A DNA stretch of 63,956 nucleotides, the filler included, from Pirum gemmata (taxonomy: Eukaryota): NCBI GenBank assembly GCA_002812295.1. It is 13 parts of 13 records of this genome, joined end to end, with 100 filler letters (N's around TTAATTAATTAA, not from the genome) between each part and the next. Parts side by side here need not be neighbours in the genome. Positions count along the whole stretch, not along the records: positions 39,428 to 44,275 come from PDIN01000864.1; 12 more parts are not named here. One strand, written 5' to 3'. A program made the position numbers and the translations under genes. Numbering within the stretch: position 1 is the stretch's first letter; every line of letters begins with the position of its first letter. Positions 39,565-44,115 of the stretch are shown here, in pieces. The notes below the pieces were generated by a model. It made no database searches. It had not been told where the DNA came from and saw nothing but the letters and a program-made list of their open reading frames with translations.

Positions 39565-42500
39565 TTGAGCAAAAACAAAGCAAAAGCTGATACTATCGTA
39601 GAGAATATACCTACGATACCCAAAAAATCGGTTGCACAACAACGGCAATCAGATGTAACGGTCACAAAGCCAGTTGAAGGCATGACCGAGACGGATAGGT
39701 TACATAGAGCCTACTCCTTCTTTGGGATTGAGAAGATCAAGTCCACTATAAACAATAGTGGCCTTGACTACCTCATGATTGCGGTAAACGCAGTCGAGCG
39801 TAATATACATATTTACGCCAATTCTGTAGACCAAAACGAGAAATCTCGTTTGTCGCAAGAGATAAACAAAGCTCTTGTAGACATTGCCATGCACTTAGGG
39901 AATCAAAGAACAGGTTCCTTGCTAGAGCAGCTACTCAAAGACAACGATGACGCATACAATGACGTTTTCGATAAAACTGACGCAAAAAAGAAAAAAAACT
40001 TTTTAGCTGTACAAAACAATACTCAAAATAATAATAAAAAAATAATCAAAATAAATAATATTTGCTATTCTCTTTATTATAACAGTTACACTCTAACGAA
40101 GGAGTCCACACTAACAAATAATTTTAATAAACAAAATAAATTAATTATAAATCTAAATCTTGGGTCTAACCATCTAATTAGGGTGTTATTAGACACTGGG
40201 GCCGAGATTTCGGTCACTGATGAGACTGTAATCAAAAAATTACAGTCACAACATAAAAATAAATTTAAAATAAACTATCATAATATCAACCTAGAGTATT
40301 TAGGGGGTACAGTGGGACACGCTGTGGGTCAATTAGAAGAACCTGTTATGATTTCAACTGGCAAAAAACATACTACAGTATTACCACTAGTAATGAATCT
40401 ACAAAACAGCGATTTTGATATGATTCTCTCTTTAGAAGATATGGGTAAACTGGGTATGTATATAGGGGGTCTACCGAGCCCTGCTGATCTACACAACGAT
40501 ACTTATAAACACGATAGTGAAATGTTAGATGAATCTACAGGTATCGAAATAGATAGTAACGACTACTACGACGTTACATCATCAATAAAAGATTTAATCA
40601 AACAAAATGAAAAAATCAAAATAAATGACTGGTGTACCCTGGAAAATGCAGAGGTCACTTTTGAAGTCAATCAAGATAAATTAAAAAACACCAAGTTCAA
40701 AAGACGTAACTTTGTTTCTCACAAATATATAGAATCAACAGATAGTCAAATACAACAATGGCTATCCGAGGGTGTAATTGTAATTAACACAGAACAAACC
40801 CCAGTTAACTTACCCTTACTAGCTGTACCACAGTACAATAGTAAAGGAGAACTAAAGAAAGTTCGTATATGCCTAGATGTTCGTGATATAAATAAATTAA
40901 TTGCTAACGATAGGATAGAAGTACCCTCAGTTAGAGAAGCTGTGAGAGGTATACAAAACAAATACATATTTACATCTTTAGATTTAAAATCAGGCTACAA
41001 CCAAATGAAAGTAGCTAACGAGTGTCAAAAATACCTTGCCTTTACTTGGAATCGAAGACAATACCGGTTCGCAGGGGCACCATTTGGGCTAAACTTTTTG
41101 CCATCTTGGTTTCACAGACACTTATCAACACTACTAGCCGGTCTGGACGACGTTATAGTATACCTAGACGACGTTTTGATAGCTAGTGACAACGAACAAA
41201 AACACATACAAACGGTACGAGAAGTTATTTGTAGATTAAACAAAGCTAACTTACGATTAAACTACGATAAGTGTACGTTCGGGTGTAAAGAAACACTATT
41301 TTTAGGTTTTAAAATATCAAACAAAGGGGTACAAATAGACCCTTACAAACAAGCACGACTTATTGACTTTCCCACACCCACTACTGGAAAAGATGTACAA
41401 TCAGTGTTAGGGTTGTTCAATTTTGTTCGTGAATTTCTACCAACTTATGGAGAAGTAGCCACCCCACTTTATAAATTAGTAAATATAAAAAAACTAGAGG
41501 GTGATGCAACTTGGGATAAAGAAGGTAAACAAGCCTTTGAAAAACTAAAACAAATAGTTAAATCTCCTATGATTTTGAACTGGCCTCTTGAAGGAGTTCA
41601 ATTACAATTAAAAACAGATGCTTCAGAGAGTGGTTTCGGGGGTATGCTATTTCAAATAGACCCAGAAACACAACAACAAAGAGTTATACAAATCTTCTCT
41701 GGAGGCTTTCGGGGTTCCCAATTAAACTATTCGATACCGAAAAAAGAATTATTCGCTATTGTTTATGGGTTAAAACACCTTAAGTGGTATCTAAGGGGTA
41801 CCCACTTCTCACTATGGACTGATAATAGCTCACTGTCCTATCTCCATGAGGCTGAGATTGATAAATCAGCCATAGGGAAATGGTTCGACGTCATATATGA
41901 ATTTGACTTTGATATCCAACATATCCCTAGAGAACAAAATTATGAAGCAGATTTGCTATCAAAAGTTTGTGCTGATTCAAACAGACAACAACTAAAAAAC
42001 ATAAGAATGAGTTACTTGTGTTTAGATACTAGAAATAAAATAAATAACAATAAAATAAATAATGATTATTGTGAAACGTTTAATATATACAAAACAACAA
42101 TTAAAAATAAAAATAAAATAAAAAATACAAACAACTTTGAAAAGTGTGATTGGAAATTAAAAACAAAATTTTTTCAAATAGCAGAACAACTATATGGGCC
42201 ACACACTGTAGACCTATTTGCTACTGCATACAACACACAGTTAGAGAGATACTTTACTCGTAATAACTCTGCTTTTCAATATAATTGGAAAAACGAAAAT
42301 GGTTGGGCTAACCCTCCTTTTCACTTAATAAAAGAAGTGCTAGATCACGTAAGTAGATGTGGTGCTACTATAACAATATGTTTACCATTTTGGAAAAATG
42401 CAAAGTGGTTAAAACAATGCCAAAACATGCTAATCGATGAACCGATTATTCTACCCAGAGACCCTGATACGTTTCTAAAAGGGGGGAGCATGATAATAGG

Positions 42501-44115
42501 CCAAACACCTTGGCAACACACAATGTTATGTAGGATAAGTGGTGATATAAATAAAAGTAAATATAAACTTGATACAACTTACTGGTTAAACCTACATGAA
42601 AACATAAAAAACAATATTAATAAATATAATATAACAAAACAAAAAACAATAAAAACAAAAATAAGTAAAAAATACTCTATGTTTACTTTTAATAAAGGTA
42701 ACTTGGTTATTGATGGTGAAGAGCAACCACCTTCAAATAAAGAAAATAATAATATACAAGATAATAAATCTTACTCAGAAATGATAACTGAGCTACCAAA
42801 GAAGGTAGAAAACTTAACTAGAAAAGAAAAACTATCGATAGTAGAACAATATCACAATATTACTCATTCATATAAAAAGAATGTTAGAAACCTATTAATT
42901 CATACTGGGCAGTTCAAGTGGTCTGATCTGGATGAGTTAATAGAAGAAGTAGATCAAAAGTGTTTACTTTGTGAGTTAGTCAATATAGAAAAACATGGCT
43001 ACCACCCCGCGAAATCCATAAGTGCAGAATTTGCAGGTGATGTTTGGGTGATCGATTATATACAACTACCTCGGTCTGACACCAAATTTCTTTTGCACGT
43101 TTTAGATTTGTACTCAGGTTATAATATATTAAGACCAGTAGAACACAAATCAGGATTACACACTGCCCAAGCTTTATACAACATAATGTGTGAGCATGGT
43201 TATCCACAGAGGATAATCCATGATCGTGGGAATGAGTTTGTCAATACACATACGAATGAGATGCTTGAAGCCCTATCAGGCATTCTTGTCAAAAGCGGAT
43301 CTCCTTACCATCCACAAACTCAAGGTGCAAACGAAAGAAGGCATTTTGATATAAGGAAACTTATCATTGAACAGATAAATAAATATGTTGATAAGTGGGA
43401 GGATGCGATTCCAACGGTTCAAATGAAAATGAATCTTAGAATTACCCGCAGGCACAAATCCACTCCATTCGCTGTGTACTTTGGCCGTACTCATAACGTT
43501 TTTAACATATCGCATACGAATAATGTAAAAGACGAGTCAACATGGTTACAAAGACTTGATAAATTAGAGCACCATGTTCACCCTGCACTAAAAAGAAATA
43601 TTCAAGTTTATGACAACCAACGAGTTAGATACAGTAACAAAGAACGTGCTGGACGACTAACTGCATTTTCACCGGGTGACTGGGTAAAAATGGCTAATCT
43701 AAACTCAGCAGGAGATAAGTTAGATGCAACTTACAAAGGTCCATATATAATACAGGATCGTGTTCCGGGGGGCTATGACTTAATAGACGTCAACTCCGAA
43801 ACGGGAGGAAAGGTCAACGCTCTACCGGTACCTGTTGAGCAGCTAATTGCCTGGGGTCGAAAGGATATGTTTCAAAATAAATATTCCGACGACGAGTCTT
43901 TTCAAACACAGGATTATCGTTCAATTTTATCGCATAGGAAGAACCCTTCTACTGGTACTTTTGAATATCAAATCTTGTGGTCTGATGGGACCTCCACTTG
44001 GGAGAGTGACGATTTTGCTACTGATATGAGTGCAATTAATGCTTATAAAAAGCGTAATGCACGTCGCGCGTTTAAAGGCGCTAAAAAACGACGACTTGGG
44101 TCATCGGTAGTTTAG
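39565..44115 (+). mobile_element. pol: Intact Ty3/Gypsy (chromovirus-like) LTR-retrotransposon polyprotein: PR-RT-RNaseH-DNA MTase-IN-GPY-chromodomain; LTRs not on this contig
   Basis: 1516-codon uninterrupted ORF (open from 39520, first ATG 39682). LLDTG 40186-40200; RT LDLKSGYNQ 40978 and YLDD 41161; RNase H TDAS 41614, KELFA, TDN, ADLLS; integrase H-x3-H 42853, CLLC 42961, D 43054, D 43222, E 43333; GPY 43738; chromodomain ILSHR..EYQILWSDGTSTWE ~43912-44055. Confidence 0.95.
42145..42540 (+). other. Dam-like (phage/DIRS-type) N6-adenine DNA methyltransferase domain inside Pol
   Basis: DWKL..FFQIAEQLYGPHTVDLFATAYNTQLERYFTRNNSAFQYNWKNENGWANPPFHLIKEVLDHV...ITICLPFWKNAKW: SAM-binding DLFA (42211-42222) and catalytic NPPF (42310-42321), bounded by Asn/Lys-rich linkers. 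Confidence 0.88.

What the first reader, a model, noticed from the sequence alone, without database searches (positions are those of the whole stretch)
39565..44115. Ty3/Gypsy retrotransposon carrying an apparently active N6-adenine DNA methyltransferase inside Pol
Seen: one uninterrupted ORF encodes PR, RT and RNase H, then a ~130-aa module (aa ~862-992, 42145-42540) with DW-x-L, GPHTVDLFA (motif I), SAF-x2-W and WANPPF (motif IV), then an HHCC/DDE integrase, GPY motif and chromodomain. Established: this module matches the Dam-like (PF05869-type) MTase that follows RNase H in DIRS tyrosine-recombinase retrotransposons, where the catalytic motif is often degenerate (FPP). Canonical Gypsy Pol has no such domain. 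Here it sits in a DDE-integrase element and keeps NPPF. Inference: a retrotransposon that would package an MTase able to put 6mA (or 4mC) on its own cDNA or integration site, to evade host nucleases or silencing, or to mimic 6mA-marked active chromatin. The intact frame, among otherwise decayed TEs, suggests recent activity. I cannot exclude that similar elements already exist in repeat databases.
Basis: partly seen in the sequence, partly recalled or inferred. Interest (0 to 1): 0.92.

Follow-up and report, generated by a model that had tools for sequence, protein, structure and literature searches.

The report
Ichthyosporean gypsy retrotransposon carrying adenine methyltransferase
This jumping gene, likely from a single-celled relative of animals, really does carry a well-conserved phage-like adenine-methyltransferase domain between its RNase H and integrase, but a 2026 preprint already described this design in the same lineage, and what the domain methylates is still untested.

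Summary
Observation confirmed. One 1,531-codon open frame (39520-44115) encodes protease, RT, RNase H, a Pfam Dam domain above cut-off, an HHCC/DDE integrase, GPY/SH3 and a divergent chromodomain. It is no chimera: all 9 closest RT/RNase H relatives from other assemblies share the layout, and the domain is conserved like RT (37-56%) between linkers at 5-27%. Novelty is low. A May 2026 preprint (10.64898/2026.05.21.726589) names these DAM-LTRs, with an ichthyosporean lineage (Pirum, Abeoforma, Sphaeroforma). This domain groups 99/99 with three Abeoforma proteins, and the N-terminus is 81% identical to a Pirum gemmata protein. The scan has noted the kind before on other DNA. "Active" is unproven: the preprint's E. 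coli assay was negative. Three additions: a chromodomain, which the preprint says this lineage lacks; PCIF1/CAPAM as nearest solved fold, pointing to single-stranded or hybrid substrates; and a likely frameshift just after this copy's start codon. Best mechanism (inferred): the particle-packaged enzyme methylates the element's own reverse-transcription intermediates.

The parts
39520..44115 (+). Gag-Pol-like open frame, 1,531 aa stop to stop; first in-frame ATG at 39682
39527..39538 (+). Likely natural start codon, out of frame with the long ORF and closed after three codons in this copy; contigs of two runs differ by small indels at 39534-39536
   Evidence: (table 4)
39538..39912 (+). Short Gag-like N-terminal region (no Pfam family); 81% identical over 126 aa to Pirum gemmata model P0199
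   Evidence: Gag role inferred from position
40141..40479 (+). Aspartic protease (DTG at 40192), below Pfam cut-off
40849..41316 (+). Reverse transcriptase (YLDD at 41161); nearest solved relative is Ty3
41599..41955 (+). RNase H (TDAS, KKELF, WTDN, EADLL)
41962..42129 (+). Variable N/K-rich linker 1, 7-27% identity to relatives
42136..42543 (+). Dam-like (PF05869) N6-adenine methyltransferase domain, aa 873-1008; DLFA at 42211, NPPF at 42310
42553..42804 (+). Variable linker 2, 5-23% identity to relatives
42817..43509 (+). Integrase: HHCC finger (H1112, H1116, C1148, C1151) and DDE core (D1179, D1235, E1272)
43672..43854 (+). GPY / SH3-like integrase C-terminal domain
43903..44064 (+). Divergent chromodomain; keeps the central W, lacks aromatic residues at the first and third cage positions
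   Evidence: cage positions read by eye against recalled HP1 pattern

Best explanation
This is a Ty3/Gypsy retrotransposon of the ichthyosporean DAM-LTR lineage, whose Pol carries a conserved Dam/PCIF1-family adenine-methyltransferase domain that likely methylates the element's own reverse-transcription intermediates. Shown: the domain order, the fold, intact DLFA and NPPF motifs, conservation across the clade, and trees that match for MTase, RT-RNase H and integrase. Inferred: the domain is made and packaged with RT and integrase; the variable linkers on both sides are protease cleavage regions; as a ~136-aa core with no obvious target-recognition domain it would rely on proximity inside the particle, and would act on RNA:DNA hybrid or single-stranded cDNA more than on free double-stranded DNA. 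New insertions would then carry 6mA, which host AMT1 could maintain at ApT, keeping young copies transcribed. The divergent chromodomain would help steer integration. The host is likely Pirum gemmata or a close relative.
For: Pfam Dam above cut-off; PHROG 111 DNA methyltransferase E 1.3e-9. AlphaFold2 model pLDDT 92, pTM 0.87 matches phage N6-adenine MTases in BFVD (E 2e-9, TM 0.7) and PCIF1/CAPAM in the PDB (E 6e-6; Z 10.8, rmsd 3.7, 140 aligned, against T4Dam Z 8.2 and E. coli Dam Z 8.0). PCIF1_WW hits 12 of 71 alignment members, Dam 68 of 71. 9 of the 14 RT/RNase H hits, the 9 at 44-59% identity, carry Dam; the 5 at 34-35% do not. 36 of 36 close-clade proteins spanning RNase H to integrase have the domain with NPP[FW] (includes near-identical cluster members). 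Domain identity 37-56% against 5-27% in linkers. MTase groups 99/99 with three Abeoforma whisleri proteins. Preprint: 6mA and expression are raised in DAM-LTR copies of A. whisleri and S. arctica, and 9 of 13 DAM-LTR species have AMT1. [quoted passage not shown]
Against: No activity has been shown for any member: expression in dam- E. coli gave no rise in 6mA. 6mA on DAM-LTR copies may follow from transcription and host AMT1 rather than cause it. ApT is not enriched in the ORF (421 against 439.9 +/- 6.2 in synonymous shuffles) and neither is GATC (9 against 12.4 +/- 2.5). By sequence and predicted fold the domain is closer to phage DNA enzymes than to PCIF1, and the PCIF1 lead in Z over the next row (9.7) is only about 1. 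Earlier scan notes report relatives that keep the domain but lose the catalytic motif (unchecked). Only 4 variant sites lie in the domain (3 synonymous), too few for dN/dS. LTRs, PBS and PPT are not in the contig.
Confidence: 0.5

Rival explanations
1. The domain is a PCIF1-like RNA methyltransferase that marks the element's own transcript (internal or cap-adjacent adenosine) to stabilise it or shield it from RNA silencing; genomic 6mA on copies is secondary.
For: PCIF1/CAPAM is the nearest solved structure, and the next rows are RNA N6-adenine enzymes (KsgA, DIMT1, Erm, METTL5). Iyer et al. place the DIRS MTases in the PCIF1 clade (PMC4738411 passage). PCIF1 prefers ssRNA. The E. coli assay read only genomic DNA.
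Against: Phage DNA MTases match better (E 2e-9 against 9e-6 for viral PCIF1-like proteins; Dam 68 of 71 against PCIF1_WW 12 of 71). No phage enzyme named as PF05869 appears among the PDB rows, so PCIF1 may lead by default. The model aligns to only 140 of PCIF1's 482 residues, so the parts beyond the catalytic core are missing.
Confidence: 0.2
2. The domain is catalytically silent or dispensable for catalysis and is kept as a nucleic-acid- or SAM-binding module of the Pol particle.
For: Negative E. coli assay. Iyer et al. judged DIRS copies likely inactive. Earlier scan notes describe conserved domains with lost motifs (unchecked).
Against: NPP[FW] is kept in 36 of 36 close-clade proteins and 27 of 31 LTR-borne hits, across relatives only 41-68% identical in RT and RNase H; D33, F35, A36, N40, P67, P68 are at least 90% invariant in 71 rows.
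Confidence: 0.15
3. It works like a phage Dam: a sequence-specific double-stranded DNA enzyme that methylates GATC or a similar site in finished cDNA or at the integration site.
For: Closest profile and fold matches are phage N6-adenine DNA MTases. GATC contains ApT, the AMT1 context. GATC specificity of HP1/VT-2/T1-type enzymes is recalled; only lists them as Dam-like.
Against: GATC activity should have been obvious in dam- E. coli and was not seen. GATC is not enriched in the ORF.
Confidence: 0.12
4. The layout is an assembly chimera or a nested DIRS insertion into a Gypsy element.
For: No listed contig bridges linker 1 by 31 letters on both sides; those stretches were skipped as repeats. 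The contig may be a collapsed multi-copy family.
Against: The same order occurs in the 9 nearest RT relatives from ENA, Logan and EukProt, and subclades match across MTase, RT-RNase H and integrase trees. One X2 contig joins the MTase end to the integrase start across a 227-base gap.
Confidence: 0.02

Closest known systems
Ichthyosporean DAM-LTR lineage (Fernandez-Moreno et al., bioRxiv 10.64898/2026.05.21.726589; whole main text read, figures and supplements not seen)
   Same: [quoted passage not shown] This MTase groups with three A. whisleri proteins (99/99); the N-terminus matches a P. gemmata model (81%).
   Different: The preprint says the lineage lacks chromodomains; this element and its Abeoforma relative P0005 carry a divergent one that falls under their 1e-5 threshold. 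The preprint compares the domain with T4 and E. coli Dam and never names PCIF1. Whether this exact family is in their supplementary tables could not be seen.
DIRS1-type retrotransposon MT domain (PF05869; PMC3783388 passages)
   Same: Same Pfam family, same place directly after RNase H; 31-47% identity in the representative search.
   Different: Here it is followed in frame by a DDE integrase and preceded by a protease, which DIRS lack; the RT groups with Gypsy, not with the DIRS-like rows.
PCIF1/CAPAM cap-specific adenosine N6-methyltransferase (PDB 6irw, 6irx)
   Same: Nearest solved fold (Foldseek E 6e-6; Z 10.8, 140 aligned); sequence-level kinship in 12 of 71 family members.
   Different: 13-17% identity; only the catalytic core is shared; encoded inside a mobile polyprotein.
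Phage PF05869 / PHROG 111 N6-adenine DNA methyltransferases
   Same: Best profile and predicted-structure matches; motif I before motif IV.
   Different: 16-22% identity; the Pfam match covers only positions 3-108 of 169; activity on DNA not shown for the eukaryotic form.
KnitGypsy-Dnmt3 and SymbioDIRS-Dnmt3 (PMC5890265 passages)
   Same: Retrotransposon Pol with a captured DNA methyltransferase under purifying selection.
   Different: Those are C5-cytosine enzymes, a different fold class and mark.

Membership tests
Ty3/Gypsy LTR retrotransposon | Pol order protease-RT-RNase H-integrase | tested here: met
Ty3/Gypsy LTR retrotransposon | RT-RNase H of Gypsy type, not DIRS | tested here: met
   Best solved match Ty3, E 2e-68; groups with 30 LTR rows apart from 6 DIRS-like rows, SH-aLRT 100
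Ty3/Gypsy LTR retrotransposon | HHCC finger and DDE integrase | tested here: met
   rve above cut-off; residues located; 36 residues between second D and E, canonical 35 recalled
Ty3/Gypsy LTR retrotransposon | LTRs, primer-binding site, polypurine tract, target-site duplication | not testable with these tools
   Contig ends 92 bases before and 160 bases after the ORF; no genome is held; none of the fetched metagenome loci carries the MTase
DAM-LTR (2026 preprint) | Dam domain (HMM E under 1e-5) in an LTR-type Pol | tested here: met
   E 2.8e-8 in the whole protein
DAM-LTR (2026 preprint) | Conserved Asn-Pro-Pro triplet with flanking aromatic residues | tested here: met
   GWANPPF
Ichthyosporean DAM-LTR lineage | MTase clusters with Abeoforma, Pirum, Sphaeroforma elements | tested here: met
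   7-row clade with 3 A. whisleri proteins, 99/99; no Pirum or Sphaeroforma MTase was in my set
Ichthyosporean DAM-LTR lineage | Described as lacking a chromodomain (descriptive, not the basis of the clade) | tested here: not met
   Pfam Chromo E 0.0029; independent 4-seed profile iE 2.6e-4 for this element and 2.7e-5 for Abeoforma P0005 among 164 proteins; model superposes on CBX7/CBX8 at 1.1-1.8 A over about 50 columns, E 0.02-0.05. The preprint's description looks incomplete; the element still sits in the clade.
Active N6-adenine DNA methyltransferase | Rossmann MTase fold with SAM-binding and catalytic motifs | tested here: met
Active N6-adenine DNA methyltransferase | Methyl transfer to DNA adenine | not testable with these tools
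   Only published test of the family was negative in E. coli
DIRS tyrosine-recombinase retrotransposon | No protease, no DDE integrase; tyrosine recombinase ORF | tested here: not met
   Protease and DDE integrase present; no other long ORF on the contig
EpiLTR (Dam + DNMT + chromodomain) | C5-cytosine methyltransferase domain | tested here: not met
   No DNMT Pfam hit at E up to 1 and no unassigned stretch of that size in the ORF

The most novel reading that the evidence does not exclude
The retrotransposon 'Dam' is functionally a PCIF1-type enzyme: it methylates the element's own RNA or RNA:DNA replication intermediate inside the particle, which is why double-stranded DNA assays fail. With the overlooked chromodomain, ichthyosporean DAM-LTRs would pair a self-marking writer with a chromatin reader, and one old capture may have been passed between Gypsy lineages rather than taken from DIRS four times.
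Probability: 0.3. Interest if true: 0.7.

Novelty: new member of a known kind. Interest (0 to 1): 0.3.

Why it matters
Whether retrotransposons write their own 6mA to pass as active chromatin is an open question, and no member has shown activity. This element has all motifs intact and lies in a lineage where 6mA maps exist for relatives, so it is a good test substrate. The structural link to PCIF1 says which substrates to try first (hybrid, ssDNA, RNA). As a discovery of architecture it adds little: the design, and this lineage, were reported in May 2026.

Tried and rejected
No genome is held for the window, so copy number, LTRs and dN/dS over copies could not be obtained. A metagenome scan with the MTase found 40 pattern matches and no relative; a scan with alignment A1 kept 80 loci of ordinary Gypsy elements at 27-36% identity, and the Dam profile hit none of those loaded. 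phmmer of the MTase against the PDB gave nothing (best E 0.62); the profile search of A2 was dominated by RNase H and chromodomain columns. No RNA holder listed. Read depth in X1 is very high with 461 variant contigs, which fits a multi-copy family, but the tool says depth is no copy number. Of 40 listed variant sites (43 found) 25 are synonymous; only 4 lie in the MTase. No enrichment of GATC, ApT or any palindromic 4-mer. A slippery AAAAAAC at the Gag/protease boundary (39993) is one of 7 such heptamers in this A-rich frame and was not pursued. In my MTase trees LTR-borne domains form one side against DIRS-like ones, but support is weak (SH-aLRT 88; 83/79), the set was picked by likeness to the query, 58 unlabelled fragments and short rows were left out (98 of 159 rows used), and 'DIRS-like' is my proxy (weak RT/RNase H, no integrase; recombinase not checked). 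I therefore do not dispute the preprint's count of captures. The chromodomain model was built with true chromodomains in the alignment, which leans it towards that fold. No complex prediction was run: no binding claim is made. A search for papers holding PCIF1, retrotransposon and Dam as whole words gave 0; the DIRS-PCIF1 link itself is in print.
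Full report
Setting. The window is 13 separate pieces of about 4.8 kb joined by N spacers. 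The element fills piece 39428-44275, so neighbours are unrelated contigs and no LTR or flank is visible. No genome is held. My RT, RNase H, integrase, protease and Dam profiles hit only this ORF in the window, so the remark about decayed neighbouring TEs has no support.

Observation. The frame 39520-44115 is open for 1,531 codons. Pfam finds RVT_1 (aa 444-599), RNase H (665-795), Dam PF05869 (869-968; 34.1 bits, cut-off 28.1) and rve (1173-1265); protease is weak. The best solved match for RT-RNase H is Ty3 (E 2e-68).

Not a chimera. Searching with RT-RNase H returned 14 proteins. The 9 at 44-59% identity all carry Dam; the 5 at 34-35% do not. In the alignment the MTase is 37-56% identical to relatives, like RT (33-63%) and RNase H (31-68%), while the linkers either side are 5-27%. 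36 of 36 close-clade proteins that span RNase H to integrase hold the domain with NPPF or NPPW; this count includes near-identical cluster members. The same subclades appear in the MTase, RT-RNase H and integrase trees, so the domain has travelled with the backbone for a long time. Contigs of three studies of one organism hold the stretch; none listed bridges linker 1, which was skipped as repeat.

Fold. The model from a 71-row alignment has pLDDT 92. In the viral library the best matches are phage N6-adenine DNA MTases (E 2e-9 to 1e-6), then PCIF1-like proteins of giant viruses. Among solved structures PCIF1/CAPAM leads in both programs (E 6e-6; Z 10.8, rmsd 3.7, 140 aligned), followed by RNA enzymes at Z 9.7-8.4, M.TaqI 8.3, T4Dam 8.2 and E. 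coli Dam 8.0. Pfam Dam hits 68 of 71 members, PCIF1_WW 12 of 71. So the domain belongs to a phage-Dam/PCIF1 group and is closer to the phage side. Iyer et al. already put DIRS MTases in the PCIF1 clade and thought them inactive (PMC4738411, passages). The intact NPP motif here, and in 56 of 70 DIRS-like hits chosen for likeness to the query, does not fit general inactivity.

Lineage and host. The representative search gave 3,520 hits at E up to 0.001; of the 164 proteins then held, 31 are LTR-type with the domain, counting the query. The top hit P0016, and P0018 and P0005, are Abeoforma whisleri models and form a 7-row clade with the query (99/99). The N-terminal region is 81% identical over 126 aa to a Pirum gemmata model. 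The host is therefore likely P. gemmata or a close ichthyosporean (inference).

Prior art. A May 2026 preprint (10.64898/2026.05.21.726589; main text read in full; figures and supplements not seen) reports DAM-LTRs as new, defines five lineages, one ichthyosporean from exactly these genera, finds more 6mA and expression on DAM-LTR copies in A. whisleri and S. arctica, finds no activity in dam- E. coli, and proposes methylation of RNA-DNA intermediates followed by AMT1 maintenance. The scan's own notes list 23 findings with these words in at least 3 genomes, none like this sequence. The architecture is thus known.

What this element adds. First, a chromodomain. The preprint says the ichthyosporean lineage has none. 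The C-terminal 81 aa hit Pfam Chromo at E 0.0029; a profile from four outside chromodomains finds it here (iE 2.6e-4) and in Abeoforma P0005 (2.7e-5) among 164 proteins; the model superposes on CBX7/CBX8 at 1.1-1.8 A, with E only 0.02-0.05 and an alignment that leans that way. It lacks two of three cage aromatics (read by eye, pattern recalled), so methyl-lysine reading is doubtful. Second, the PCIF1 link, which the preprint does not mention and which I did not find joined with 'retrotransposon' and 'Dam' in the library. PCIF1 works in the order ssRNA > hybrid > ssDNA > dsDNA (PMC9178792 abstract), which would explain a negative genomic-DNA assay. Third, this copy is not fully intact: the Pirum model starts MTNAKKERK, and the matching ATG at 39527 is out of frame here and stops after three codons. 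Contigs of X1 and X2 differ by small indels at 39534-39536, so other copies likely read through. An X2 contig also skips 227 bases between MTase and integrase, a defective copy.

Mechanism. Shown: order, fold, motifs, conservation. Inferred: the domain is packaged with RT and integrase, is released or tethered through variable linkers, and methylates the element's own hybrid or single-stranded cDNA, so that new insertions start with 6mA that AMT1 can keep (0.5). Rivals: RNA substrate (0.2), binding without catalysis (0.15), phage-like duplex GATC enzyme (0.12), chimera (0.02). Against the DNA models, ApT (421 against 440, z -3.1) and GATC (9 against 12.4) are not enriched in the ORF.

Verdict. 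A real, well-preserved example of a kind described months ago in the same lineage. Interest 0.3; the value lies in its use as a test enzyme and in the chromodomain and substrate leads.

Noticed in passing
window 42295-42344: Contigs in all three runs match only this NPPF stretch (5 other letters in 50) and go on unlike on both sides; the loose ends read in frame like the MTase of P0001. A second Dam-bearing family likely lies in the same organism.
   Followed up: partly
window 43423 and 43865: Single X1 contigs join TTAGGG repeats to internal integrase sequence; several other pieces of the window carry TAACCC/TTAGGG runs. Could be telomere healing at broken copies or library artefact.
   Followed up: no
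P0002 (ENA, 1,644 aa): PR-RT-RH-Dam-IN-chromo element whose MTase is 46% identical to this one while RT, RNase H and integrase are 33, 31 and 27%; it sits among Dam-less Gypsies in the RT tree. Candidate separate capture or transfer between Gypsy lineages; host unknown.
   Followed up: partly
P0098 (2,382 aa): Dam domain lies upstream of RT rather than after RNase H.
   Followed up: no
window 6161-8713 (-): 850-aa protein kinase (Pkinase E 3e-30) with a cysteine-rich C-terminus that looks like a RING-between-RING module by eye.
   Followed up: no
window 23401-24504 (-): 367-aa protein with five EsV-1-7 cysteine-rich repeats (E 1e-38), a motif named after a giant-virus protein.
   Followed up: no
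window 26303-26914 and 27139-27726 (+): A short LRR protein (LRR_14 E 3e-7) and a 195-aa membrane-anchored ORF of no family, intronless in appearance; might be viral in origin.
   Followed up: no
window 39993-39999: AAAAAAC slippery heptamer followed by TTTTTAG at the Gag/protease boundary; copies vary here (loose ends at 39986-39987), but 7 such heptamers occur in the frame.
   Followed up: partly
window 46064-46202, 51032-51192, 51601-51785, 53094-53207, 54743-54862: A ~100-140-base dispersed repeat at 83-89% identity occurs on three different pieces (inverted pairs I1, I7, I8, I14, I16, I19); possibly a small non-autonomous element.
   Followed up: no
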